A stretch of 64,000 nucleotides of DNA, taken from Candidatus Bathyarchaeia archaeon (GTDB taxonomy: Bacteria; Patescibacteriota; Microgenomatia; PFEM01; JAFGMK01). Position 1 is the stretch's first letter, and every line of letters begins with the position of its first letter. The stretch covers positions 142,961-206,960 of the forward strand of contig DATKWK010000023.1 in assembly GCA_035529595.1 (NCBI GenBank), read 5' to 3'. Of this stretch, positions 8,830 to 37,916 are shown in pieces. The position numbers and the translations under genes are program-made. The notes below the pieces were generated by a model. That model worked only from the letters and a program-made list of their open reading frames with translations, made no database searches and was not told where the DNA came from.

Positions 8830-9444
8830 TTATCGGATTGGTTCTAATATTTTATTACCGTATTTTTTTAAACAGTACCTTGTAGGAGCGGTTAATTTTT
8901 TCCGGAGTGCCTCGTTAATATTCATCCAAGTATGGCGGCGGCCTTCTTCCCGATCCGTTTTAATTTCAGGTTTTCCCGACAATGTTAAGATATAAAAATG
9001 ATGTCTATGACAGTCGGCGCCTCGGCGGCAGAGATCACCAACGATATCTTCTGTTGAGAAAAAAATAAGCTTATGAGTTCTGATTCCGGCTTCTTCGAAC
9101 AATTCTCTTCTGGCTGCATACTCGGGAGTTTCTTTCTCTTCGATATGTCCCGACGGGACAGTAAATCCATAGGGGTAAATTGTCCTTTCAACGAAGAGAA
9201 TTTTCTCATCCGATCGAATCACAAAAACACTGGCGCTCTCATGCCAGTATTCGCCTGTTTTCTGGTCAATCCACCATTTAAGAGCCGGGTCGATATCAAT
9301 TAAACGGTCGAAAGTTTTACCGCAACTATGGCATTTGTATAATCTTTTTTTATCTGCTATGACATCATGTATATTTTCCGAATAACAGTTTTGGCAATAA
9401 CGGTGTCTTTTATTGTCAGTCGGTAAAGGGAAAGTTATTTTCAT
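8830..9444 (-). CDS. nudC: NUDIX hydrolase with N-terminal zinc ribbon (NudC-like NADH pyrophosphatase/decapping candidate)
   Basis: CQNC...CHSCGKTF is a CxxC-x17-CxxC zinc ribbon. Nudix box GHIEEKETPEYAARRELFEEAGI (GX5EX7REUXEEXGU). Confidence 0.7.
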   Translation of the reverse strand: MKITFPLPTDNKRHRYCQNCYSENIHDVIADKKRLYKCHSCGKTFDRLIDIDPALKWWIDQKTGEYWHESASVFVIRSDEKILFVERTIYPYGFTVPSGHIEEKETPEYAARRELFEEAGIRTHKLIFFSTEDIVGDLCRRGADCHRHHFYILTLSGKPEIKTDREEGRRHTWMNINEALRKKLTAPTRYCLKKYGNKILEPIR

Positions 9445-16043: not shown

Positions 16044-18011
16044 TTAAAGATGAGGTTTTTTAGGTAAATATTCAAATACCTTGGTTTTTCCTTCAGTGAA
16101 CACTTCTTTTAAATAAGGATAATTAATTTTTTCGATTGTAAGAATAAAACGGACATTGGTTTTTTGCAAATTTTCTTCAGTTATATTAGTTAAAAAGATA
16201 GTTCGACCGAAGGCGGGGTTGATTATATCGGGGAATTGCATCTTTGCTATAAATTCATTGTAACTAGTTAGATGGACAGGATGGTAGCCATTAGGTGTTG
16301 TGAAACCGTAAACCATATTGACATTAACCGGAAAAACTTCTTGGTGGACGCTTAACATTTTTTGGTTGTTCATAAGTTTATCTTTGAGAAAAAGAGTGGT
16401 AGCTGTTTCAGGAAAAATTAAGTCAGGAGGTATAAAAGAATTAAACTTTTTTCCTTGATAAACCAAACTGGTGGTGTTTAGGATAATTAAAATCCAGACT
16501 AATAATTTATAATGCCAAATTAGGTATAACAAAAGAGTAATTACGCTAAGACCAGTCAATATTCCCGGGATAACTGTGTTTCGAAAAGCAATCATTCTTT
16601 GGGTGGGGTTGTCAATACCAACTAATAAATAAACAGAAAGAATTGATATGCTTAAAAAGCAAATCAATAAAAGCTTTTTCGGTTTATATTTATTATTAAC
16701 AATATTAGCTAAACCGTAACTGGAGAGAAAAGAGATGGCGACAACTGTTAGAGATAAAATTCTAGCCGGAATTAAAGACGAAAAAACAGGAATATTATAT
16801 TTGTAGAGAAATCGAGAAAAGGGCGTATCTAAAGACAAAATAAGGGAAATTAGCAAAACGGCTAGAAAAAAACGAGTCAAACGGTCTTTTAAGGAGACAA
16901 AAAAAATCAATATAATTGAAAGACAACCGCAATAAATAACAAACTCGTAATAATGATAACGGCTACCGAACCAATTCATTGTCACAGGACTACCAAAAAA
17001 ATCAGGAGCAATTGATGTTAGTATTAACTTTGGTTGAATCAAGTAAGCAGTAACGTTTTCGTCAAGTCCGATTCCTTTCCAGCGAGCGGTTAGCGGTAGT
17101 AATTTCAACCAAGGAATAAGTTGAGGCAGCGATAATATTATAAACAAACATAAGGACAAAAAAGGAAAGATTATTTTTTTTTGTTTATTTTTGACCACAA
17201 ATAAATAGAATCCAACTGCTAAAATAAGGTGATAAGCAAAAAACTGGACGAATCCGGCAAAGAAACTCATTGTTAAAGAAAAAGCTAGCAATAATAGAGA
17301 GAGTATTGGTTTTTTCTCCATTTTATTTAAGGCGAAAAGTGATAACGGAATCCACAAAAGTGTATGCATTGCTGTTCCAAATTCGACCTGGTTGAAATAG
17401 TAAGAATTGAAAGCAAATATCAAAGATCCAAAACACGAAACGGGTTTTGTAACATGAACCGATCGTAGAAATATATAAAAAAATAACCCAGCTAAAATCG
17501 GTTGGATCATGATGTAAATCGACCAAGCGGAAGAAAAATTGTTGGTTAACCAGAAAACTAAATTTAAAGGATAAAGCGCCCCAGAATGTCCGTCGGCAAG
17601 CAACGGGGTGCCTGAGAATATATATTGATTTATATTAGGTAACCGACCTTGCTTTAATTGCTTAATGATTTCTTGTTTAAATGGATAATATTGAGTTAAA
17701 GCGTCTGACAGTTCTATATTTTTAACCGGATAACCGGTTATTTTGTTCATCCAGACAACATCTTTCCACGGGTGATAATTGCCCAACAAGATATCTCCGG
17801 GAAAAGGAACCTGACCTTTAATAATTAATGGCCAGAAAGTGGTGAGTGTTGTTAAAAGTAAGAGAACAACTAATCCTAAATGCTCCTTTATTCTAATAAC
17901 GAATTTCATTAACTGATTATATATATTTTGGATATAATTAGTATATAAACATATCGATAGGGATAGTGGGAACGCAAAACTGCCCTTTGGGATTATTGCT
18001 TGTATCCCCAA
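16044..18011 (-). CDS. Large polytopic membrane protein, YfhO/ArnT-like glycosyltransferase-fold candidate
   Basis: At least 12 predicted TM segments. The N-terminal region FPGDILLGNYHPWKD resembles YfhO-family proteins. The true start may be M at 17909. Confidence 0.4.
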   Translation of the reverse strand: MGIQAIIPKGSFAFPLSLSICLYTNYIQNIYNQLMKFVIRIKEHLGLVVLLLLTTLTTFWPLIIKGQVPFPGDILLGNYHPWKDVVWMNKITGYPVKNIELSDALTQYYPFKQEIIKQLKQGRLPNINQYIFSGTPLLADGHSGALYPLNLVFWLTNNFSSAWSIYIMIQPILAGLFFYIFLRSVHVTKPVSCFGSLIFAFNSYYFNQVEFGTAMHTLLWIPLSLFALNKMEKKPILSLLLLAFSLTMSFFAGFVQFFAYHLILAVGFYLFVVKNKQKKIIFPFLSLCLFIILSLPQLIPWLKLLPLTARWKGIGLDENVTAYLIQPKLILTSIAPDFFGSPVTMNWFGSRYHYYEFVIYCGCLSIILIFFVSLKDRLTRFFLAVLLISLILSLDTPFSRFLYKYNIPVFSSLIPARILSLTVVAISFLSSYGLANIVNNKYKPKKLLLICFLSISILSVYLLVGIDNPTQRMIAFRNTVIPGILTGLSVITLLLYLIWHYKLLVWILIILNTTSLVYQGKKFNSFIPPDLIFPETATTLFLKDKLMNNQKMLSVHQEVFPVNVNMVYGFTTPNGYHPVHLTSYNEFIAKMQFPDIINPAFGRTIFLTNITEENLQKTNVRFILTIEKINYPYLKEVFTEGKTKVFEYLPKKPHL

Positions 18012-18146
18012 AACCTAAGAAGGGGAGAATTATTACCAAAAGAGATGAATTTAGAAGAATTGTTAAATCTGAAGCTCCTTTTATACCTAGATAATTTATG
18101 TGATATTTTTTAACATAAAGGTAGCTTTATTGTTATAATTTGTCCA

Positions 18147-19058
18147 ATGGGGATAGAAAAAGTCTTGGAAAATTTAGAAGAGCTTTTTAGCCGATGGGGA
18201 GTCGCCAGCTGCGATTGGGTATTTACTGCAGAATATGCTCTCAAACTTTTGGGGTATGACGTGTTGGTAAGAGAGGGGCATCTAACTATTCAGGTTAACA
18301 AGACGAAAATTCCTTGGAAAATTGGAGAAGCGCTTGAAACTCATCCCTCTGTAAATACAAAATTTTCCAAGGAATACTTGCGGTTTCAAGAAAAAACCGG
18401 TTTTGAATTTGATATGGCTCCGGTATCCTCCGAAGATTTCAAAAGAAAAGCCAAATACACTGTTTTATACACTCTTCCTAATGGAAGACAGATACGGGTA
18501 CAAACCCCCGAAGGTGGGTTGGAGGAGTTAGAAATTATACTTGCTTCATGTACCGATGAGGGCTGGGGAGCCGAAAAAGGTTTTAGAATTATGGCTTGCG
18601 TTGAAGATGAGTTGAAGGCATTGTTAAAGAAAGGAGAAATCAAGCTGGCAAAAAAGTATGAGATGTTGATTAAGAAATATAGCCGTTTTAGAAAGGCAAA
18701 GAAATTAAATGTTTCCAAAGATTTTACAAAAATAAGGGAATTCACCGGCATAGTGGCATCTAAGGGTAAGGTGAAGGGAATAGCGAACGTTATCCTTAAT
18801 CCTGAAATAACAAAGAAATTTGAGAAAGGCGAGATATTAGTTACAACCATGACTTCGCCAAAATTTACTATCTTTTATAAGAAGACCTCTGCAATTGTTA
18901 CGGACGGTGGTGGGGCACTTTGTCATGCGGCCATTGTGGCGCGAGAGATGAAAATTCCTTGTATCGTTGGCACGAAAATTGCAACCAAGGTCTTGAAAGA
19001 CGGTGATTATGTAGAGTTTGATGCGATCACGGGCACGGTAAGGAAAACGGAGAAGTGA
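18147..19058 (+). CDS. PEP-utilising-enzyme mobile (phosphohistidine swivel) domain protein with unknown N-terminal domain
   Basis: C-terminal TDGGGALCHAAIVAREMKIPCIVG matches the PEP-utilizers His domain (TDxGGxxSHAAIxARExGIPxVVG). A -35/-10 promoter (TTAACA 18108-18113 / TATAAT 18132-18137) lies upstream. Confidence 0.65.
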   Translation: MGIEKVLENLEELFSRWGVASCDWVFTAEYALKLLGYDVLVREGHLTIQVNKTKIPWKIGEALETHPSVNTKFSKEYLRFQEKTGFEFDMAPVSSEDFKRKAKYTVLYTLPNGRQIRVQTPEGGLEELEIILASCTDEGWGAEKGFRIMACVEDELKALLKKGEIKLAKKYEMLIKKYSRFRKAKKLNVSKDFTKIREFTGIVASKGKVKGIANVILNPEITKKFEKGEILVTTMTSPKFTIFYKKTSAIVTDGGGALCHAAIVAREMKIPCIVGTKIATKVLKDGDYVEFDAITGTVRKTEK

Positions 19059-19098
19059 GAAATTATTAAATTTTTTTTGAAAAAGACAATAGAAGGAA

Positions 19099-19926
19099 AT
19101 GATCCAAGAAGATCTGACAAGTAGTCAGAATGAGCCAGAAGGCGTTTTAGATGTGAAGCCTACTAATCTGCAAGAATTATTATCTAGGGGTATTATGCGA
19201 AATACAGAGGGCGCTGATTTTAGAGACACCTCAATAATTGTTTTAAGACACGCTGACGAAAGAGAAGATAGTGAGGGACGAACGATAGGAATATCGGATG
19301 AAGGAAATGCTCAAATAAGTTCTGCCGTTGGTGGAGTCGCTGCTGCATTAAGAAAGGTGGGGACTGACATTATAATAAAATTTTATTCAAGTCCTAATAA
19401 ATGGGCTGAAGTTACAGCTGGACATATGATTGAGGAGATCGAAGGCGGAATAGAAAATGGTAGTTGGCCCAGAAACGTTCGCTTGTTAAGTATCCCTGGT
19501 TCGAGACAAAAACCAAGAAAAAGACAGAAAGTCACAAGGGATATTCTCGTTGACAGGAGTGATGTAAAGAGTATTTTGGCTGAAAGAGAAAGTAGAAGAA
19601 AAGCTGGTGAAGGAGTTGAATTTAGTACTGTTCTAATTGAAAAGGACAGGCGAGGCGAATTGCAACCAGGGACCGAGGGAAGAGAATTGGTAGTCAGACG
19701 ATTGACTGAAGTTGTCGGGCGTTTACAAAAGATTAACGAAAGAATTCTCGATAAAGGTGAAAAACTGCTTTTAATACTTATTACACATAATATTTATTTT
19801 GAAGCATTTTTAGGCGAGAAAGCCGAAGGTTGTCAGGGCGTACGAATAGATTTACCTCTTAAGGCTGAGGAGAAACTAGTTCTTGTGGGTGCAAATAATA
19901 GCAGAGAGCTGGATTGGCAGGTTTGA
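19099..19926 (+). CDS. Histidine-phosphatase-fold protein (SixA/PGM branch-like, divergent)
   Basis: IIVLRHADE (RHG-like), SSPNKWAEVTA (SPxxRAxxT-like) and LILITHN (second catalytic His region). Sits 40 nt downstream of the PEP-domain gene. Confidence 0.4.
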   Translation: MIQEDLTSSQNEPEGVLDVKPTNLQELLSRGIMRNTEGADFRDTSIIVLRHADEREDSEGRTIGISDEGNAQISSAVGGVAAALRKVGTDIIIKFYSSPNKWAEVTAGHMIEEIEGGIENGSWPRNVRLLSIPGSRQKPRKRQKVTRDILVDRSDVKSILAERESRRKAGEGVEFSTVLIEKDRRGELQPGTEGRELVVRRLTEVVGRLQKINERILDKGEKLLLILITHNIYFEAFLGEKAEGCQGVRIDLPLKAEEKLVLVGANNSRELDWQV

Positions 19927-19972
19927 AATTTAGATTAAATCTGATTGTGGACTTTTACAATGGTAATCTCAT

Positions 19973-20491
19973 TTACTTTCCAAGGTGCGTTGGGGTGAAA
20001 CTGAAAGGCAAAAGAATCTTCAGCGAGGTTACAGCCAGAGGCCTGCCTTCGGGATCGACATCAATTACTAAGGCATTATCGCAATGTTCCACAGTTTCCT
20101 GTCGACAAGCACCGCAAGGAGCTGACTCTCCAGAATGGCAAACAACTAGGGCGACAACGAACTGGCGTCCATTTCCTGCTTCACCTTCGTTTATGGCTGT
20201 ATTGATAGCATTACTTTCCGCGTGTCCAGTTTGTGAATAACTCACCACTTCCGTATTCGCGCCTGCGTATATTTCTCCAGAAGAACAAAGAACGGCTGCG
20301 CCGACGGGGTAGCCAGAGTAAGGAACGTAAGCATTAGACCTAACTTCTACAGCCGCAGCAATAAGTTCCAGTAGTTTTTCTTCTCCAATCCTTTCAATCT
20401 CCGATGCTATCCACAAACGCTCTGTGTCGATTTCATCTGGGGACGGAACCTTAATTGCATCTCGAATATTTGTTAGAGACTCTATTCCCAT
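19973..20491 (-). CDS. cdd: Cytidine/deoxycytidylate deaminase family protein (small, tetrameric-Cdd-like)
   Basis: Zinc-binding HAE (GHAESNAI) and PCGACRQ motifs. LLPFSF C-terminal region. The locus looks G/C-richer than its surroundings. Confidence 0.7.
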   Translation of the reverse strand: MGIESLTNIRDAIKVPSPDEIDTERLWIASEIERIGEEKLLELIAAAVEVRSNAYVPYSGYPVGAAVLCSSGEIYAGANTEVVSYSQTGHAESNAINTAINEGEAGNGRQFVVALVVCHSGESAPCGACRQETVEHCDNALVIDVDPEGRPLAVTSLKILLPFSFTPTHLGK

Positions 20492-22483: not shown

Positions 22484-22876
22484 ATGGATTTGCTGATTAA
22501 GGTTGGTTCGGATTATTTGGAAGTCGGACAGACACTTGATACTTTGTCCGGCGGTGAATCGCAAAGATTAAAATTGGCCAGCCGATTGCAGCGACAGGGC
22601 GAGTTTTATATTTTGGATGAACCGACTTCCGGCTTACATTTTGCCGATATTGAAAAATTATTGACCTTGTTTAACCGATTAGTTGATAACGGTAATACCG
22701 TCTTGATTGTGGAACATAATCTTGACGTGATTTAAAATGCCGATTGGCTAATTGATTTAGGACCGGAAGGAGGAGTAAATGGAGGCAGGCTTATCGCTCA
22801 GGGAACACCGGAAGATGTTAGCAAAGTAGCCGATTCTTATACCGGTCAATACTTAAATGAAACAGCTGGAAATTAA
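22484..22876 (+). pseudogene. uvrA: uvrA C-terminal fragment (about 130 aa) with in-frame TAA at 22733-22735
   Basis: [16 protein letters not shown]...[19 protein letters not shown]...[26 protein letters not shown]...GTPEDV reproduces the UvrA second ABC signature/Walker B/H-loop and C-terminus. There is no upstream approximately 800-aa portion. The stop replaces a conserved Lys. Confidence 0.7.
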
Positions 22877-32578: not shown

Positions 32579-33700
32579 TTAATTTTGTACCATCTGCTCT
32601 ATTAAACGTCTAAAAATATTTTTGGTAATCCGGATGCTTTCTGTATCAACCCATTCGTCAACTGAATGGCCGAAACCCGTTGGTCCGAAACTAATCGCCG
32701 GCACATTCCAAGCTTGATAGATTAAAGCCGATTCATAAAAACCGCCCTTGCCTAAATCTTTTCTGAACTTGACCTTTTTAGAGATAGCTCTTGTAAACTT
32801 TATAAATTCTTTTAACGTACGCTTCTGGATTAGATAAGGTTGATAGTTTAATTTAATCTTTCTCTCGCTTAGAGTAGCCTTTCTTTCTTTGGCAATGGTT
32901 TCTATTTGATTAAGTACTTTTTCCGCCGAAGCTTTGGGATTAGCCGGTCTAATATCCAAGATAAATTTTGCTATATTTGGAACAGAATTAGATTGAACTT
33001 CTATACTTCCATTATTGTTCAAGCCACCATAAAGATAACCAAGATTAGCAGTTGTTTTTCCCAATTCTCGTAAATCGTTTTTCTTAATCTTGTTTTTTAG
33101 AATTTTAAAAATTTCTACTGCTTCGCAAACAGCATTGATTCCCGTTTCCGGTTGGGAGGCATGACTGCTTTTACCAAGAATGGTAAGCTCTATTTCTATT
33201 AAACCGCGGCAGCCGTTGGTGATTTCCAGATTAGTTGGTTCCGGACAAATAACCAGTTCTGGTTTTAAGAGGTAAGTAGATAATATTTTCTTAATGCCCT
33301 TGAAATAATATTCCTCATCGCAATCAAAAATTAGGGTCAGTCCTTTTGTTTTTTTTATTTCGGAAACAGCTGAAAGGAGAGAGGCAATTCCGGCCTTCAT
33401 ATCAGCTGCTCCTAGACCGTAAAGTTTGCCGTCTTTAATTATTGGCGTAAGCATGCTCTCTTTTTTTCCGGATGGCCTAATGGTATCCATGTGGCAAACA
33501 AAAACCACTTTGGCTGGCCAGCCGTCGGTGGCAATCAAGTTATATCTGTTATTTTCAACCTTTTGTCTTTTTATTTTTAGCCATGAACAATATTTCTCTA
33601 GAAATCGATAGAGCCATTTTTGGATTGCCTGCTCATTGGTTTCTTCATTAACATACGATGGGATTCGGACTAGTTCTTGGGTAATCTTTATTTCATTCAT
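32579..33700 (-). CDS. M20-family metallopeptidase/deacylase (ArgE/DapE-like)
   Basis: VFVCHMDTI (metal-binding His/Asp) and GAADMKAGIASLL. Its ATG overlaps the stop of the upstream gene (ATGAATGA). Confidence 0.75.
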   Translation of the reverse strand: MNEIKITQELVRIPSYVNEETNEQAIQKWLYRFLEKYCSWLKIKRQKVENNRYNLIATDGWPAKVVFVCHMDTIRPSGKKESMLTPIIKDGKLYGLGAADMKAGIASLLSAVSEIKKTKGLTLIFDCDEEYYFKGIKKILSTYLLKPELVICPEPTNLEITNGCRGLIEIELTILGKSSHASQPETGINAVCEAVEIFKILKNKIKKNDLRELGKTTANLGYLYGGLNNNGSIEVQSNSVPNIAKFILDIRPANPKASAEKVLNQIETIAKERKATLSERKIKLNYQPYLIQKRTLKEFIKFTRAISKKVKFRKDLGKGGFYESALIYQAWNVPAISFGPTGFGHSVDEWVDTESIRITKNIFRRLIEQMVQN

Positions 33701-35180
33701 TTTGCTTCCTGGCGGCTAATAATTGTCCGGGCGAAAAGGGAATCTCGGGATAAGCCTCCCATTCATTTAATAAGGTCAAAAGAAGCTTTCCTGTTAGTTG
33801 ATGAGTAATAACCAAGGTTTGGTCAAGATCGGTTTCGCTTATAAATGAGACCAACCGAGACCTTATTTCTTCCCAGCTTTCTCCGCTTCCTCCATATCTT
33901 AGAGTGGGGTCGGATCTCATTTGTTTGATAGTTTGAATTCGTTCAGGAAGATTTTCTGGCCTCCGATTCCATTCTCCTTCAGCGGCGTCTTTTAGTCTTT
34001 TGTCTCTCCTGATTGTTACTCTCAACTGCTCGGCAATGATTTCGGACATTTCCCGAGTCCTTCTAAAAGGAGAGGTAATAATTTGCCTTACCCTGTAACC
34101 TGCTTGTTTGATTTCTGTGGCAGCTGCTATTGCCTGAGTTTTTCCGGTTTCGGTTAGTCCTTGACCAGGAGAGTAAGAATCAACTAAACCTAGAACATTT
34201 GCCTGGCTTTGACCATGTCTTAATATTAAGCATTCAGGTGTAGTCTTGATTTCTTGAGAAGGATTTAGCTCGATGGTCATTTTTCTGGCAATAATCTTAT
34301 CAAGTGAAGTTAGAGCAGTCGGAACTTCGCTTACAAAAATAGCCCGGTAGTCTTTTTCTGGATCGAAAAGAGGATTAAAATAAGTGGCAATTTTGATTGT
34401 TCCTCCAAGGGCAGTTTGAGGATTATCATCTATCCCGGCAAAAAGAGGCCAATTTTTGGCTTCCCTAACCACGCGAGTGGCAACAAAATCACAGCCCTTT
34501 TGTTGGCAAGCTTGAAAAAATTCTCTCATCAGTAAGAGTCCCAAACTCTTTCCTTGCCAATCTTGGGCAACGCCGACGCCGTCATAATAGGCGCATTTTC
34601 CTGGTAAATTCACCACAAGTTCTTGACCTTCTTTGGTCAGTTCAAACCGGTCGTTTTGATCAGTGCCTACGACACCAGGGGCAAACTTATTTCTGATTAG
34701 ACTCTCCATCCCGTTTTCGGCCTCCAGGCCATAGCCAATAGCGTAACCGATTAGATCAGAAAAAGGCTGGAGAGAAAGTGGGTTGGCCAAAAGAATGAAA
34801 ATCCGGTCAGGTGGTGGCTGATTGATACTCAGATATCTAGTCACTTCGTCGGCGACTACTGCGGAGGTATACCTGGCTGATTTATCTTTTAATTGATTTA
34901 AACGGTTATAAGGTGGAGATTCTTGAAAGAGGGGAATAAGAAGCTGAGCGCCGTAGTTGGTGATTAGTCGTTGAATCAGGGGGTTATCTGTGTCTGTAGG
35001 AAAGAAAACCCCGTCGGTTAATCGATAAACTTCCATAGGTAATATCCCACCCCGTTGAGTACGGGCATTTAACTCAAGCCGGCAGTTTCCAATTCTGGTT
35101 TCCAAGGAGAGATTGGCTATTTTATCTCTTTCTTCTGCTGACACCTTAGCTCCTTTCGATGGAATCAACGATCGTGGCAT
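33693..35180 (-). CDS. Fusion protein: GNAT-like acetyltransferase region plus C-terminal histidine-phosphatase (PGM-family) domain
   Basis: QGKSLGLLLMREFFQACQQKGCDFVATRV (GNAT motif A-like Q/RxxGxG/A). C-terminal ILRHGQSQAN, ITSPFRRTREMSE and VITHQL (RHG / second His of the histidine phosphatase fold). Confidence 0.5.
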   Translation of the reverse strand: MPRSLIPSKGAKVSAEERDKIANLSLETRIGNCRLELNARTQRGGILPMEVYRLTDGVFFPTDTDNPLIQRLITNYGAQLLIPLFQESPPYNRLNQLKDKSARYTSAVVADEVTRYLSINQPPPDRIFILLANPLSLQPFSDLIGYAIGYGLEAENGMESLIRNKFAPGVVGTDQNDRFELTKEGQELVVNLPGKCAYYDGVGVAQDWQGKSLGLLLMREFFQACQQKGCDFVATRVVREAKNWPLFAGIDDNPQTALGGTIKIATYFNPLFDPEKDYRAIFVSEVPTALTSLDKIIARKMTIELNPSQEIKTTPECLILRHGQSQANVLGLVDSYSPGQGLTETGKTQAIAAATEIKQAGYRVRQIITSPFRRTREMSEIIAEQLRVTIRRDKRLKDAAEGEWNRRPENLPERIQTIKQMRSDPTLRYGGSGESWEEIRSRLVSFISETDLDQTLVITHQLTGKLLLTLLNEWEAYPEIPFSPGQLLAARKQNE

Positions 35181-36369
35181 AGCAATTAAATTTCTCCAAC
35201 ATTAGTTTAGTTATTTGAACCATTTTTTGAGCGATTTTTTTCTGTTTTTTTTTATCTTGGCTGAACTCGATAAGCTTTGAGATATAGAAAGGATCATCGT
35301 AGGCAATCGGAAAACAGGTTCCTAGCTTTTGGGCTTGTTCAAGACCCTGATCTTCGTTCATGAAGCCTGTTGGAACGATACTGGTGACAAAAGGTTTAGC
35401 GATAAGATATAACTCCGCACTATTATCACACAGGCTAGCTCGGCAAATGTTGATATCAGCGGCCTTTTTTAAAAGGAGATCAATCTCAAGATCAACAAAA
35501 GGGGAGGGGCGACTGAAAGCCCTCACTTTTTGGCATTGGTCCAAAACCGGCTGGGCCATTTTTTGAACTCCTTCAAGCATATAGACGAGACTTTTACCTT
35601 TAAAATTTGTTTCTAGGCCAGCGATCAATCGGGTGATAAAGCTTAAAGTTTGTCCTTGGCCTTTGCTAGAAAGAAAGCCGTTTTGACTCCGACCGTATTC
35701 GTCTTGATAGTTGCGATTATTGGGACAAATATTGAAAGGGTTAACGTACTCATCGTTAATGTTAAGAAAGACTAAAAGATCGTATTGAAGATTTTTTATT
35801 TCGGGATAGTAGGGAAATAGTTTTTGACGAGCTTTTTTAATTGACATTTTTCTAATTTCCTTAACTGTTTTGAGTTGTCGTTGAGGATAAGGCTGAGCGC
35901 AGACCGCAATATTGCTCATCTCTTTGACTTTAGAATATTTAAGAGGGAAAGGAGTAAGGATGATATAAGAATTGGCTTTTTGGTAGACTTCGCCGATGTA
36001 GCGGCTGGGGAATTTTTCGAAGCTTAAAGGAGTGGAATATTCGCAAATAGCATAGGGAATTCCTTTTCTGAAGGCATAATAAGAGCCGTAGGTTCTGGGG
36101 CTAAAAGAGATCAAGTAATCAAAACTAATTTGAGAAAGGATTTTTTCGCACTTTAGATAAATTGCTTGATCTGATTCGGCTGGTTTTCTTTGAATGACAA
36201 GATTGGGTCTCAAGTTGAGGTCATTTAGTTTATACATATAGAGAGATTCGGAGGCAATGATTGGTTGATAACCGGACTCCTTTAAGCCCTGATAGAGCCA
36301 GAAAATAGTTTTTGAACTGCCGCGGCCACCCACAAAACCAGTAAAAAAGAGAATTTTTTTCTTGTTCAT
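35146..36369 (-). CDS. GT-B-fold glycosyltransferase-like protein (MGT/MurG-like pattern)
   Basis: N-terminal ILFFTGFVGGRGSS and C-terminal PFVTSIVPTGFMNEDQGLEQAQKLGTCF resemble the GT1/GT28 donor-binding region. Confidence 0.4.
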   Translation of the reverse strand: MNKKKILFFTGFVGGRGSSKTIFWLYQGLKESGYQPIIASESLYMYKLNDLNLRPNLVIQRKPAESDQAIYLKCEKILSQISFDYLISFSPRTYGSYYAFRKGIPYAICEYSTPLSFEKFPSRYIGEVYQKANSYIILTPFPLKYSKVKEMSNIAVCAQPYPQRQLKTVKEIRKMSIKKARQKLFPYYPEIKNLQYDLLVFLNINDEYVNPFNICPNNRNYQDEYGRSQNGFLSSKGQGQTLSFITRLIAGLETNFKGKSLVYMLEGVQKMAQPVLDQCQKVRAFSRPSPFVDLEIDLLLKKAADINICRASLCDNSAELYLIAKPFVTSIVPTGFMNEDQGLEQAQKLGTCFPIAYDDPFYISKLIEFSQDKKKQKKIAQKMVQITKLMLEKFNCYATIVDSIERS

Positions 36370-37916
36370 CTTTCTCCTTTTGTGTTGAAACCAGCTAAAT
36401 AATTTAAAACGTTAAAAAAGTTTCTTCCTGGATCTTGGTAGGTCATTTGAAAAATTTCACTAGCTTTCTGGCAGGATTGGCGAGCATATCTCGGATCCTG
36501 GATCATCCAGGCGATCACTTTAGCTAGAAGTGGAGGAGGGTCATTATAGCGGAAATTCCATTGAGTGGAAAATTCGTTGATGACTGAATCAATCGTATCT
36601 ACACCCATGTAACCAAACCCAGGAATAGTAAATAAAATTTGGGGAATGTCTGGAAGAATGGCCACTTCAGCTGAAGCGTTGGTTTCGGAGGTGCGGTTAA
36701 TAATTAATTGGCTTAGTTTATAAACAGCCAGGAGAACTGTTTGGGGAAGTTCAGGTTTGGGAACAATTAATATCCCTGACGTGGTTGGGTTTTGGTCAGG
36801 AGTAAATACCCCTTCGATTTTTTTTGATAATAGAAATTCAATAGCTTCGGCAGGTAAGACCAAGTTAATGGACCGACCAATTTGTCTTGAGGCCTCCAGG
36901 ACCCCCAGGGCTAAAGTCTGGGTGCCGGCCAGAATGCTTTGGAATTGCTCTGGGGTTAACCATTTACCGACGTTTTCTTGATTCCAATAATCGCCACAGG
37001 CAGGGCAAACAACATTAGGATTGCCATTGCTCAAGATATCAAGGCCGTAGGCTTGGATTAGTCTTCTCGCCTCTGAGACAGTAAGACCTTTATAGAAGTC
37101 TTGAAGTCGCTGAATGTAATCAGGGGTGAAGTTTTGAGCAACCGTTAGGCGTTTGAGCCCTGGGTAGGCTTGGAGACGATCGGCCTCGGCCGTAGGGGGA
37201 CATGGTAGCCAGTTGACACAAGCGGCAAAGGTTTCCAAGCCTTGATTGGGCAGGCCGGCATAGGCAGGGGGAAAGAATCGATCAAGAGGACGGCCGTTGA
37301 TATCTAAGTTCCAAGAGGGATTATCATAGTCGGGGACACAGCTGTCTTGATAGACAAATCTTCCTGCAAGCTCTGGACAGTTAAGTTCACGCTTAATTCT
37401 TAAAATTGCCTTTGCAGCTGCGAGGGGTGATTGGGCGGTATAGCCAGTGGCCAGATAGAAAATACGCTCAATTTTTTGCTCTGCCAGTTGTTTGGTGGCT
37501 TGATAAACAGCTGTCTCGATTGGTTGGAAACTAGCGGGGATTGAATTATCAGTCGGTTCTCCGATTTCTATATTAGGGGTAGTTACCAGATAGCCGGTAA
37601 GTTCTGGAACGACAAAACGAGGAACCGTTAAACTTCTTGAAACTCTTAAAAGAGGGATCATCTGGATTTGGGCGGTTTGCTCGGCCCAAGCGGAATTATT
37701 TATTGCCCAGGTAGTTGGTCCACCACCGGCACAAGTGGCTGGATTTATTTCAACAATTGCCTGAGCTGGTTTTCCGCGGATGCCTCTAGGGTATTGGCCT
37801 TCGGCAATGTCGTTAGGATTAATTAACTCTGGCCGAGGACACTGCTTGCTTGCTGCATAGTCAATAATCTCTCTAATTTCTCTTACTTGTTCATTATTTG
37901 GTAGTCTTTCGGTCAT
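36366..37916 (-). CDS. Hypothetical 516-aa protein, first gene of the G/C-richer cassette
   Basis: No recognisable motif apart from a CPACGDYW Cys pair. It overlaps the next gene by 4 nt. Confidence 0.45.
   Translation of the reverse strand: MTERLPNNEQVREIREIIDYAASKQCPRPELINPNDIAEGQYPRGIRGKPAQAIVEINPATCAGGGPTTWAINNSAWAEQTAQIQMIPLLRVSRSLTVPRFVVPELTGYLVTTPNIEIGEPTDNSIPASFQPIETAVYQATKQLAEQKIERIFYLATGYTAQSPLAAAKAILRIKRELNCPELAGRFVYQDSCVPDYDNPSWNLDINGRPLDRFFPPAYAGLPNQGLETFAACVNWLPCPPTAEADRLQAYPGLKRLTVAQNFTPDYIQRLQDFYKGLTVSEARRLIQAYGLDILSNGNPNVVCPACGDYWNQENVGKWLTPEQFQSILAGTQTLALGVLEASRQIGRSINLVLPAEAIEFLLSKKIEGVFTPDQNPTTSGILIVPKPELPQTVLLAVYKLSQLIINRTSETNASAEVAILPDIPQILFTIPGFGYMGVDTIDSVINEFSTQWNFRYNDPPPLLAKVIAWMIQDPRYARQSCQKASEIFQMTYQDPGRNFFNVLNYLAGFNTKGER

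What the first reader, a model, noticed from the sequence alone, without database searches (positions are those of the whole stretch)
18100..19930. Phosphohistidine-carrier (PEP-utilising swivel domain) protein paired with a SixA-like histidine-phosphatase-fold protein
The 303-aa protein carries only the mobile His domain of PEP synthase / PPDK / rifampin-phosphotransferase-type enzymes (TDGGGALCHAAIVAREMKIPCIVG) on an unknown 200-aa N-terminal domain. No ATP-grasp or PEP-binding TIM barrel is present. Forty nt downstream lies a protein with a divergent histidine-phosphatase fold (LRHADE ... SSPNKWAEVTA ... ITHN). Its closest pattern is SixA, a phosphohistidine phosphatase. A stand-alone phospho-His carrier followed by a putative phospho-His phosphatase looks like a minimal phosphorelay/dephosphorylation module of unknown target. 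The pair has its own promoter (TTAACA/TATAAT) and is followed by a convergent, G/C-richer cytidine-deaminase gene.
Basis: inference. Interest (0 to 1): 0.6.

Follow-up and report, generated by a model that had tools for sequence, protein, structure and literature searches.

The report
Phospho-histidine carrier with dedicated phosphatase partner
A small bacterial operon pairs a protein that carries phosphate on a mobile histidine domain with a very divergent histidine-phosphatase-fold protein; relatives of that phosphatase sit next to such a carrier gene in every genome fragment examined, which points to an undescribed two-protein phosphate hand-over module whose target is unknown.

Summary
Window 18147-19058 (+) encodes a 303-aa protein. 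It has a conserved N-terminal domain of about 180 aa with no detectable family, plus a C-terminal PEP-utilizers swivel domain (PF00391, E 4e-24, invariant His260). Forty nt downstream, 19099-19926 (+) encodes a 275-aa protein with no direct Pfam or NCBIfam hit. Profile methods place it in the histidine phosphatase superfamily, branch 1. R50, H51 and H230 are conserved, but the second pocket Arg is replaced by W102.

Protein 1 is not a fragment of PEP synthase. It belongs to a family of about 50 proteins of about 300 aa, mostly Patescibacteria/Woesebacteria, often found inside envelope-glycan gene clusters.

Protein 2's family is very rare, with about 10 clusters among 1.8 billion representatives. 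In 8 of 8 contexts it lies within -14 to +63 nt of a swivel-domain gene. This holds down to 23% identity, in either gene order, and with either fused or stand-alone swivel proteins. The reverse is not true: only 4 of 9 protein-1 lineages carry it, and others have an HD-like or NUDIX gene in that position, or nothing.

The best reading is direct phosphoryl exchange between the swivel His and the phosphatase His, most likely SixA-style dephosphorylation. Specific SixA membership is not supported, and the phosphoryl donor and final substrate remain unknown.

The parts
18110..18139 (+). Sigma-70-like promoter TTAACA - 18 nt - (TG)TATAAT. It ends 7 nt before the ATG, so the transcript is probably leaderless or nearly so.
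   Evidence: 11 of 12 matches, best site in the region; sequence.
18147..19058 (+). Protein 1, 303 aa: N-terminal domain, helical linker and C-terminal swivel phospho-His domain.
18147..18686 (+). N-terminal domain (aa 1-180). An alpha/beta core (aa 1-120) is followed by three helices. W24, Y37 and W57 are invariant; R42, H45 and K54 are nearly invariant. No sequence family was found, only a weak structural resemblance to the TM1012 nucleotidyltransferase-like fold.
   Evidence: AF2 pLDDT 84-97; conservation; no Pfam or PDB sequence hit; Foldseek 2ewr/2fcl probability 0.97, E 4e-3.
18738..19055 (+). PEP-utilizers swivel (mobile phospho-His) domain, aa 198-303.
   Evidence: PF00391 E 4e-24; Foldseek hits to rifampin phosphotransferase 5fbt at E 1.5e-11, plus PPDK, enzyme I and the pyruvate kinase C-terminal domain.
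18924..18926 (+). Codon of His260, the predicted phosphoryl-carrying histidine in the motif GGxLCHAAIxARE.
   Evidence: Invariant in 40 of 40 family members; position confirmed.
19099..19926 (+). Protein 2, 275 aa: a divergent member of the histidine phosphatase superfamily, branch 1, with an insert or cap region at about aa 130-200.
19246..19251 (+). Codons of R50-H51, the RH(G/A) motif. H51 is the predicted phospho-accepting nucleophile.
   Evidence: Invariant across the 10-sequence family alignment; aligned to RHG of Pfam-positive relatives.
19402..19404 (+). Codon of W102, at the position of the phosphate-pocket Arg in SSPxxRAxxTA. The Arg is lost here.
   Evidence: The residue is W, Q, Y or W in the four lineages paired with fused protein-1-type partners, and R in the six more distant relatives (stand-alone swivel partner seen for three of them).
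19786..19788 (+). Codon of H230 (motif ITHN), the second conserved pocket histidine.
   Evidence: Invariant; aligned to TH(E/G) of His_Phos_1 relatives.

Best explanation
The two genes form one operon and encode a phospho-histidine hand-over pair.

Shown. Protein 1 is a soluble protein of a conserved N-terminal domain plus a dikinase-type swivel domain with an intact, invariant carrier histidine (His260). Protein 2 is a divergent branch-1 histidine phosphatase that keeps the nucleophile pair R50/H51 and the second histidine H230. Members of protein 2's family are always encoded immediately next to a swivel-domain gene.

Inferred. The swivel His260 is loaded with phosphate by a donor module encoded elsewhere, most simply a separately encoded ATP-grasp component as in two-component dikinases. 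It normally delivers the phosphate to a substrate bound by the N-terminal domain, probably something in envelope-glycan metabolism. Protein 2 docks on the swivel domain, takes the phosphoryl group from His260 onto its own His51 and hydrolyses it. This is the His-to-His mechanism shown for SixA acting on NPr, and it would reset or throttle the carrier.

The loss of the pocket Arg (W102) in the lineages paired with protein-1-type partners would reflect a pocket remodelled for a protein-bound phospho-histidine rather than a small phosphomonoester.
For: Tight linkage in 8 of 8 contexts of the protein-2 family: window, L001/L020, L004/L005, L014-16, L012, L017, L021 and L013. Gaps range from -14 to +63 nt. 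Identity to protein 2 falls to 23-34%. Both gene orders occur.

The only constant neighbour is the swivel domain. The accompanying domain varies: fused N-terminal domain in the window, L001, L004 and L014; stand-alone swivel of 107-124 aa plus an unrelated 372-aa protein in L012 and L017. This argues that the phosphatase recognises the swivel rather than a particular small-molecule product.

H260 is invariant. R50, H51 and H230 are invariant.

Membership in the histidine phosphatase superfamily rests.

Precedent: SixA, also His_Phos_1, dephosphorylates NPr through a SixA-His~P intermediate (PMC7948535), and it also acts on Ndk (PMC12934123) and PfkA (PMC11974560).

Loss of the pocket Arg correlates with the fused partner type, 4 of 4 against 0 of 6.
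Against: There is no biochemical evidence and no usable structure of protein 2 (AF2 pLDDT 38), so docking could not be tested.

The phosphate pocket lacks one of its two arginines, and the acid/base residue could not be assigned, so protein 2 might be catalytically weak or inactive.

Five of nine protein-1 lineages lack protein 2. In two of them an HD-like gene (L002, Pfam E 0.004) or a NUDIX gene (L018, E 1.6e-11) overlaps the swivel gene in the same position. This fits a small-molecule phosphohydrolase role at least as well.

No phosphoryl donor domain (PPDK_N or PEP-utilizers_C) was seen in any neighbourhood, so it is not even shown that His260 becomes phosphorylated.
Confidence: 0.4

Rival explanations
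1. Pathway coupling through a small molecule. Protein 1, with an unseen ATP-binding partner, phosphorylates a metabolite or glycan intermediate. Protein 2 is an ordinary phosphomonoesterase that later removes that phosphate, or hydrolyses a by-product. The two proteins would never exchange phosphate directly.
For: In other lineages the position next to the protein-1 gene holds unrelated phosphohydrolases: HD-like in L002/L003 and NUDIX in L018, with NUDIX also next to the pair in L014. The triad loci carry further phosphoesterases: a canonical His_Phos_1 in L012 and Exo_endo_phos in L017. Many family members sit in clusters of the form GT4-GT2-GT4-[swivel]-GT4-ManC-Bac_transf-DUF4012 or in PMT_2 clusters. 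In the Hpe pathway a swivel dikinase step is followed by dephosphorylation (PMC12167813). Most His_Phos_1 members act on small phosphoesters.
Against: The phosphatase family follows the swivel domain even where the presumed substrate-binding partner changes completely, from the N-terminal domain to the 372-aa protein (hhalign probability 0.2%). That is unexpected if specificity were for the product. The pocket Arg that binds small phosphomonoesters is lost in the window's lineage. HD-like and NUDIX are not shown to be functional substitutes, and in L014 NUDIX co-occurs with the phosphatase.
Confidence: 0.27
2. Reverse relay. Protein 2 is the phosphoryl donor station. It forms His51~P from a phospho-donor metabolite, as cofactor-dependent phosphoglycerate mutase does from 2,3-BPG, and passes it to swivel His260. 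The swivel then phosphorylates a substrate on the N-terminal domain. This would be a dikinase-like system without an ATP-grasp.
For: No ATP-grasp or PEP-binding domain lies in any of the neighbourhoods. The phosphatase-fold gene is the constant partner of the swivel. His-to-His transfer involving this fold is chemically established (PMC7948535). HpeH alone catalyses phosphotransfer between phospho-substrate and substrate through its swivel (PMC12167813).
Against: Transfer from a stabilised active-site phospho-His to an exposed carrier His is energetically unfavourable unless the donor is high-energy. More than half of the protein-1 lineages work without protein 2, so another donor must exist anyway. 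There is no precedent.
Confidence: 0.12
3. Protein 2 is a catalytically dead pseudo-phosphatase that binds the swivel domain, phosphorylated or not, as a regulator or chaperone.
For: The pocket Arg is replaced by W, Q or Y in the paired subclade, and no acid/base residue can be assigned. The sequence evolves fast: 29% identity where the partner keeps 48%.
Against: R50, H51 and H230 are invariant over the whole family, down to 23% identity, which indicates retained chemistry.
Confidence: 0.1
4. There is no functional link. The adjacency is inherited by descent in a small clade, or protein 1 is a fragment of a normal PEP synthase.
For: All loci come from related uncultured lineages, and the number of independent contexts is small.
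Against: Adjacency survives divergence to 23-34% identity, inversion of gene order and a change of swivel architecture. Protein 1 has about 50 full-length homologs of the same length, found on contigs up to 847 kb.
Confidence: 0.04

Closest known systems
SixA with NPr (also ArcB HPt, Ndk, PfkA): a bacterial phospho-histidine phosphatase and its phospho-carrier targets
   Same: A branch-1 histidine-phosphatase-fold enzyme with an RH nucleophile acts on a protein phospho-histidine by His-to-His transfer followed by hydrolysis (PMC7948535, PMC6282199, PMC12934123). NPr lies in a relay that begins with a swivel-domain enzyme (EI-Ntr).
   Different: Protein 2 does not match the sixA model. It is 275 aa rather than about 160 aa, has a large insert and lacks one pocket Arg. 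The proposed target is the swivel domain itself, not an HPr/HPt-type carrier. SixA is not operon-linked to its targets in this obligatory way. The activity is not shown here.
Two-component small-molecule dikinases (HpeHI, CreHI, phenylphosphate synthase PpsAB) and their fused relative, rifampin phosphotransferase
   Same: One polypeptide consists of a substrate-binding domain followed by a C-terminal swivel His domain and lacks the ATP-grasp, which is a separate protein (PMC12167813, PMC4844700). RPH is the best structural match of protein 1's swivel.
   Different: Protein 1's N-terminal domain (180 aa) is unrelated to the rifampin-binding domain by sequence. No ATP-grasp gene is adjacent in any locus. 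The conserved neighbour is a phosphatase-fold protein instead. The 485-aa and 307-aa paralogs in L008 and L018 do resemble the C-terminal half of RPH, but protein 1 does not.
Histidine phosphatase superfamily branch 1 (dPGM, PhoE, Shb17/YKR043C, Sts, PspA)
   Same: RH(G) nucleophile motif, the SSPxxxAxxTA helix and a C-terminal TH motif. The profile hits solved members 3eoz, 5zkk, 3f3k, 3f2i and 3d4i.
   Different: Protein 2 falls below Pfam detection on its own. The Arg of SSPxxRA is W102. The insert is highly charged. The family is strictly linked to swivel genes.
C-terminal PEP-utilizers domain of Geobacillus and Staphylococcus pyruvate kinase
   Same: A swivel domain attached to a non-dikinase body, with no ATP-grasp or PEP barrel of its own (Foldseek 2e28 and 3t05).
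   Different: There the domain is appended to a complete enzyme and its phospho-carrier role is doubtful. Here the carrier His motif is invariant and the body is an unknown 180-aa domain.

Membership tests
PEP-utilizers mobile (swivel) domain, PF00391 | Match to the family model above the curated threshold | tested here: met
   84.4 bits against a cutoff of 23.1, E 4e-24, aa 225-296 covering the full model 1-72.
PEP-utilizers mobile (swivel) domain, PF00391 | Catalytic His in the T/SxxGGxxxH...AR motif | tested here: met
   TDGGGALCH260AAIVARE. G255, G256, H260, A261 and R266 are invariant in 40 sequences.
PEP-utilizers mobile (swivel) domain, PF00391 | Swivel beta-barrel/alpha fold | tested here: met
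   AF2 pLDDT about 90. Foldseek hits RPH 5fbt at E 1.5e-11 and 5hv2 with rmsd 1.0 A over 104 columns, plus PPDK, enzyme I and 2fm4.
Complete dikinase (PEP synthase / PPDK / RPH) | N-terminal ATP-grasp (PPDK_N) in the same protein or an adjacent gene | tested here: not met
   No PF01326 in protein 1 or in any called gene of the neighbourhoods. The rest of the 847-kb contig could not be searched.
Complete dikinase (PEP synthase / PPDK / RPH) | Second substrate domain (PEP/pyruvate TIM barrel or rifampin-binding domain) | tested here: not met
   NCBIfam matches to PEPS, RPH and PigC models cover only aa 170-300 of protein 1. The N-terminal domain has no hit.
Histidine phosphatase superfamily, branch 1 (PF00300) | Statistically supported homology to family members | tested here: met
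   There is no direct Pfam hit. However, the protein-2 profile finds P0123 (6e-28), P0124 (8e-25) and P0127/128/130/131 (about 1e-4) among 1.8 billion proteins. P0123, P0124, P0127, P0128, P0130 and P0131 pass the PF00300 threshold. hhalign gives 99.1% over 211 columns. The family profile hits solved PGM-family proteins at 1.9e-7.
Histidine phosphatase superfamily, branch 1 (PF00300) | RHG motif with the nucleophilic His | tested here: met
   R50-H51-A52. R and H are invariant in the 10-sequence alignment.
Histidine phosphatase superfamily, branch 1 (PF00300) | Second pocket Arg (SSPxxRA; R62 of E. coli dPGM, numbering from my own knowledge) | tested here: not met
   W102 in the window, Q, Y and W in the three other lineages with fused partners, and R in the six more distant relatives.
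Histidine phosphatase superfamily, branch 1 (PF00300) | Second pocket His near the C-terminus | tested here: met
   H230 in ITHN, invariant.
Histidine phosphatase superfamily, branch 1 (PF00300) | Acidic proton donor after strand 3 | tested here: inconclusive
   No consistently conserved Glu or Asp could be assigned in the alignment.
Histidine phosphatase superfamily, branch 1 (PF00300) | Alpha/beta fold confirmed by structure | tested here: inconclusive
   The AF2 model from a 2-sequence alignment has pLDDT 38 and its fold search is meaningless. Only the predicted order of strands and helices is compatible.
SixA (TIGR00249) | Match to the SixA equivalog model; compact protein of about 160 aa | tested here: not met
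   No NCBIfam hit at E <= 0.1. The protein is 275 aa with an insert of about 70 aa. The SixA-like Alr0221 (3f2i) is only the fifth-best solved match of the family profile.
SixA (TIGR00249) | Phospho-histidine protein phosphatase activity through an enzyme His~P intermediate | not testable with these tools
   This needs biochemistry. The precedent is described in PMC7948535.
Nucleotidyltransferase (pol-beta-like) fold, for the N-terminal domain of protein 1 | Structural match and the GS / DxD / D carboxylate triad | tested here: not met
   There is only a weak Foldseek match to TM1012 (2ewr/2fcl, E 4e-3 to 8e-3, rmsd about 10 A). The strand that would carry DxD reads GH45-L-T/N-I, and no conserved carboxylate triad exists.

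The most novel reading that the evidence does not exclude
The histidine-phosphatase-fold protein and the swivel domain together form a previously unknown His-to-His phosphorelay, built from dikinase and phosphoglycerate-mutase-family parts. The phosphatase-fold protein would be a dedicated docking station that loads or unloads the swivel carrier, replacing the ATP-grasp or water half-reaction of a dikinase. Reduced-genome Patescibacteria would use this relay to phosphorylate or remodel an envelope glycan or another substrate without a classical kinase.
Probability: 0.15. Interest if true: 0.8.

Novelty: new variant of a known kind. Interest (0 to 1): 0.55.

Why it matters
Only a handful of phospho-histidine phosphatases are known, and none is known to act on the swivel domain of the PEP-utilising/dikinase family. 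A phosphatase-fold family whose members are always encoded beside a swivel carrier would give a genetically defined enzyme-target pair for phospho-histidine biology that can be tested in vitro.

It would also flag a whole class of proteins with a swivel domain but no ATP-grasp in Patescibacteria and DPANN archaea whose phosphoryl source and substrates are unknown. Many of the family members lie inside envelope-glycan clusters, so the work could uncover a new phosphorylation step in the cell-surface chemistry of these uncultured, host-dependent bacteria.

If protein 2 proves to be an ordinary metabolite phosphatase instead, the finding reduces to an unannotated pathway pair of modest interest.

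Tried and rejected
It gave pLDDT 38, and Foldseek on it returned only noise. The structural test of the His/Arg constellation and any docking therefore failed.

3. Word-index homology searches for protein 2 found only itself and P0122, even when an alignment was used as the query. The exhaustive HMMER search was needed.

4. The profile of the close protein-2 subclade against PDB sequences gave no phosphatase hit. Only the extended family profile did.

5. The N-terminal domain profile gave nothing meaningful against PDB sequences or Pfam.

6. The 372-aa third gene of the triad loci has no Pfam, NCBIfam or PDB hit and is not related to protein 1's N-terminal domain. The idea that it is a divergent ATP-grasp could not be tested.

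7. PADLOC defence models gave no hit for any component, so a defence-system reading was dropped.

With narrower ones it returned few loci. L019 (Terriglobia, 28% identity over 83 aa) was not confirmed by the domain HMM and was discarded as spurious.

9. The NUDIX genes of L014 and L018 are not detectably orthologous, and no homolog of the HD-like or NUDIX partners lies next to the pair in the window.

10. The 655-aa membrane protein upstream could not be tied to GT-C glycosyltransferases. The glycan-cluster context is therefore not shown for the window's own copy.

11. Literature searches found no description of a swivel plus histidine-phosphatase pair.
Full report
**1. What is in the sequence**

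Two co-directional ORFs occupy the flagged interval: 18147-19058 (+), 303 aa, called protein 1 here, and 19099-19926 (+), 275 aa, called protein 2. They are separated by 40 nt. The swivel histidine is His260. In protein 2, LRHADE starts at aa 49, SSPNKWAEVTA at aa 97 and ITHN at aa 228. The best promoter-like site of the region, TTAACA-18 nt-(TG)TATAAT, lies at 18110-18139 and ends only 7 nt before the ATG. The convergent downstream gene 19973-20491 (-) is a cytidine deaminase, with GC 0.47 against 0.40 for the pair. Neither protein has a hydrophobic segment.

**2. Protein 1**

Pfam finds only the PEP-utilizers mobile domain (PF00391, aa 225-296, E 4e-24). NCBIfam models of PEP synthase, rifampin phosphotransferase, PigC/RedH and PRK08296 match only aa 170-300. 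The first 200 residues have no Pfam hit even at E 1.

The protein is not a broken PEP synthase. It has about 50 full-length homologs of 296-326 aa at 31-79% identity, on contigs up to 847 kb, from Woesebacteria and other Patescibacteria. In a 40-sequence alignment the carrier motif GGxLCH260AAIxARE is invariant. The N-terminal domain has its own invariant residues (W24, Y37, W57) and nearly invariant ones (R42, H45, K54, P56, P67).

AlphaFold2 with this alignment gives a confident model (mean pLDDT 91, pTM 0.79). It shows an alpha/beta core at aa 1-120, three long helices at aa 121-177, a disordered linker at aa 185-190 and the swivel domain at aa 198-301. Foldseek against the PDB is dominated by the swivel. 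The top hit is rifampin phosphotransferase 5fbt (E 1.5e-11), and 5hv2 aligns with rmsd 1.0 A over 104 columns. The C-terminal domain of pyruvate kinase, PPDK and enzyme I follow. The only hit attributable to the N-terminal domain is the TM1012 'putative nucleotidyltransferase' (2ewr/2fcl, E 4e-3 to 8e-3, rmsd about 10 A). That resemblance is weak, and the carboxylate triad of nucleotidyltransferases is absent. Profiles of the N-terminal domain find nothing in PDB sequences or Pfam. The N-terminal domain is therefore a new sequence family of unknown function.

**3. Protein 2**

On its own it has no Pfam or NCBIfam hit at E <= 0.1, and this includes the sixA model. A word-index search finds only itself and one homolog at 65% identity, P0122. 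A 49%-identical homolog appeared through gene neighbourhood (L004).

An exhaustive HMMER search of 1.84 billion cluster representatives with the two-sequence profile found ten proteins with E <= 0.001. Besides P0122 itself these are P0123 (6e-28), P0124 (8e-25), P0125 (a fragment), P0126 (3e-19), four proteins at about 1e-4, and P0129, a repetitive 548-aa protein that looks spurious. P0123, P0124, P0127, P0128, P0130 and P0131 pass Pfam's threshold for His_Phos_1. A profile-profile comparison of the close subclade with the four distant Pfam-positive proteins gives 99.1% probability over 211 columns, with RH, SSP..A..TA and TH in register. The 10-sequence family profile hits solved PGM-family proteins: 3eoz at 1.9e-7, then 5zkk, YKR043C, Alr0221, Sts-2 and PspA.

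Protein 2 is therefore a very divergent branch-1 histidine phosphatase. R50, H51 and H230 are invariant across the family. The Arg of the SSPxxRA motif is a phosphate-pocket residue (R62 of E. coli dPGM, from my own knowledge). It is W102 in the window, Q, Y and W in the three other lineages whose partner is a fused protein-1-type protein, and R in the six more distant relatives. Three of those six (P0123, P0127, P0130) are seen next to a stand-alone swivel, P0124's partner is truncated by the contig end, and P0128 and P0131 have no context data. No proton-donor residue could be assigned.

Its fold search is noise. Structural confirmation and docking remain undone. 'SixA-like' is not supported as membership. 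It remains a hypothesis about how the protein works.

**4. Co-conservation, seen from protein 2**

Every family member for which context could be retrieved lies beside a swivel-domain gene.

- Window: swivel first, then the phosphatase, gap 40 nt.
- L001 and L020: same order, 4-nt overlap.
- L004 (GCA_964593425.1) and L005: the phosphatase is upstream, gap 1 nt. In L005 it is split into two ORFs.
- L014-16 (P0126, 29% identity): the phosphatase is upstream and overlaps by 14 nt a 297-aa true member of the protein-1 family, 48% identical in the N-terminal domain.
- L012 (P0123), L017 (P0130) and L021 (P0127): the phosphatase is followed after 6-8 nt by a stand-alone swivel protein of 107-124 aa and then a third gene.
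- L013 (P0124): the truncated upstream gene ends in a swivel domain.

That makes 8 of 8 contexts, with both gene orders and two swivel architectures, at identities down to 23%. The third gene of L012 and L017 (372-373 aa) has no detectable family and is unrelated to protein 1's N-terminal domain. The only constant partner of this phosphatase family is thus the swivel domain itself.

**5. Co-conservation, seen from protein 1**

Nine lineages of the protein-1 family were examined.

- Four have the phosphatase: the window, L001/L020, L004/L005 and L014-16.
- L002/L003 (79% identical protein 1) has instead a 237-aa HD-like protein overlapping by 13 nt (Pfam HD E 0.004, below threshold).
- L018 has a NUDIX gene overlapping by 14 nt (E 1.6e-11).
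- L006/L007, L008/L009 and L010/L011 have no such partner.

L014 also has a NUDIX gene just upstream of the phosphatase. The neighbouring position is therefore filled by three unrelated phosphohydrolase superfamilies, or left empty.

Many family members lie in an envelope-glycan cluster of the form Wzy_C-PMT_2-GT4-GT2-GT4-[swivel]-GT4-ManC-Bac_transf-DUF4012 (L004, L008, L010/L011, L018) or next to GT2/GtrA and PMT-type genes (L006, L014). The window's own copy is not in a recognisable glycan cluster. Its divergent upstream neighbour is a 655-aa protein with at least 9 TM segments and no detectable family. The wider flanks share the DUF6941 ... YchF-S6-SSB-S18-CtpA-HtrA synteny with L002.

L008 and L018 carry extra swivel paralogs of 307 and 485 aa that resemble the C-terminal half of RPH-like dikinases. 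No gene with an ATP-grasp (PPDK_N) or a PEP-binding barrel was recorded in any neighbourhood.

**6. Mechanism**

Shown: an intact swivel carrier on a novel domain; a histidine-phosphatase-fold protein with its nucleophile retained; operonic, obligatory linkage of the latter to swivel genes.

Inferred: direct phosphoryl exchange between His260 and His51. The argument for direct interaction is that the phosphatase family follows the swivel while the presumed substrate-binding partner changes. In addition, its small-molecule phosphate pocket is remodelled (Arg to W, Q or Y) exactly where the partner is the fused protein.

The most likely direction is carrier to phosphatase to water, as shown for SixA with NPr through a SixA-His~P intermediate (PMC7948535), and later for Ndk (PMC12934123) and PfkA (PMC11974560). 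I give this 0.40.

The main rival, at 0.27, is indirect coupling through a phosphorylated small molecule. It is favoured by the HD-like and NUDIX genes in the same position, by the extra phosphoesterases in the triad loci, and by the precedent of dikinase-then-dephosphorylation pathways (PMC12167813). A reverse relay in which protein 2 loads the swivel (0.12), a pseudo-enzyme regulator (0.10) and no functional link (0.04) are the remaining options.

The source of phosphate for His260 is unknown. The simplest assumption is a separately encoded ATP-grasp component, as in HpeHI, CreHI and PpsAB (PMC12167813), but none lies nearby.

**7. Comparison with known systems, and novelty**

Architecturally, protein 1 is closest to the HpeH/CreH/PpsA type component of two-component dikinases (substrate domain plus C-terminal swivel, ATP-grasp in trans), but it has an unrelated, much smaller substrate domain. 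Functionally, the pair is closest to SixA with its phospho-carrier targets, but protein 2 is not a SixA and the target would be a swivel domain.

No PADLOC defence model matches. No paper describing a swivel plus histidine-phosphatase pair was found.

I classify the finding as a new variant of a known kind: a rare, clade-restricted phospho-histidine carrier and phosphatase-fold module. Its function is only inferred. Interest is 0.55.

**8. Organism**

NCBI names the source contig 'Candidatus Bathyarchaeia archaeon'. However, the window encodes gyrase A and B, a type II/IV secretion ATPase, CtpA, HtrA, SSB and YchF, has a sigma-70-like promoter, and is syntenic with Woesebacteria-type contigs. 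It is a bacterium of the Patescibacteria, and the label is probably a binning or classification error.

Noticed in passing
window 33693-35180 (-), with 35146-36369 (-) and 36366-37916 (-): A 495-aa protein has a canonical His_Phos_1 domain at aa 318-474 (Pfam E 4.5e-22; best NCBIfam match is archaeal dPGM) fused to an N-terminal part of about 300 aa with no hit. The two genes upstream of it in the same orientation (407 and 516 aa) have no Pfam hit either. This is a second, unrelated histidine-phosphatase gene in the window.
   Followed up: partly
whole window (source contig of 846,852 bp): NCBI labels the contig 'Candidatus Bathyarchaeia archaeon'. The gene content (gyrA/gyrB, T2SSE ATPase, CtpA, HtrA, SSB, YchF), the promoter type and the synteny with Woesebacteria contigs are bacterial (Patescibacteria-like). 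The taxonomic label is probably wrong.
   Followed up: partly
window 18110-18147: The -10 element of the strong promoter-like site ends 7 nt before the start codon of protein 1, which leaves no room for a Shine-Dalgarno sequence. The transcript is possibly leaderless.
   Followed up: no
window 22484-22735 (+): An isolated 83-aa ORF carries an ABC signature/Walker B region of the UvrA type ([12 protein letters not shown]...[10 protein letters not shown]). It looks like a gene remnant.
   Followed up: no
window 16044-18011 (-): A 655-aa membrane protein with at least 9 predicted TM segments, divergently transcribed from the pair, has no Pfam, NCBIfam or PDB sequence match. Its shape is compatible with a GT-C-type glycosyltransferase, but this is not shown.
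   Followed up: partly
L008/L009 3750-7356 and L018 6554-8912: Swivel-domain paralogs occur in tandem inside one glycan cluster: 307, 298 and 485 aa in L008, and 485 and 303 aa in L018. The 307-aa and 485-aa proteins resemble the C-terminal half of rifampin-phosphotransferase-like dikinases, yet no ATP-grasp is nearby.
   Followed up: partly
L012 1191-4095; L017 742-3863; L021 267-2150: A three-gene module recurs: a histidine phosphatase, a stand-alone swivel of 107-124 aa and a third gene. In L012 and L017 the third gene encodes homologous 372-373-aa proteins of unknown family; the truncated third gene of L021 is not clearly related to them. The module is preceded by further phosphoesterases, a canonical His_Phos_1 in L012 and Exo_endo_phos in L017.
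   Followed up: partly
L005 830-1643 (GCA_001791965.1) versus L004 4187-4999 (GCA_964593425.1): The protein-2 homolog is split into 130-aa and 71-aa ORFs in the older Woesebacteria RBG_13_36_22 assembly but is intact in the related newer genome. This is either an assembly frameshift or a pseudogene.
   Followed up: no
L002 5906-6619 and L018 8899-9456: In lineages without protein 2, an HD-like gene (weak, Pfam E 0.004) or a NUDIX gene (E 1.6e-11) overlaps the 3' end of the protein-1 homolog by 13-14 nt. This suggests interchangeable phosphohydrolase partners.
   Followed up: partly
window 8830-9444 (-): A NUDIX hydrolase (E 1.8e-19) has an N-terminal zinc-ribbon-like segment. It lies 9 kb from the pair and has no detectable relation to the NUDIX partners seen in L014 and L018.
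   Followed up: no
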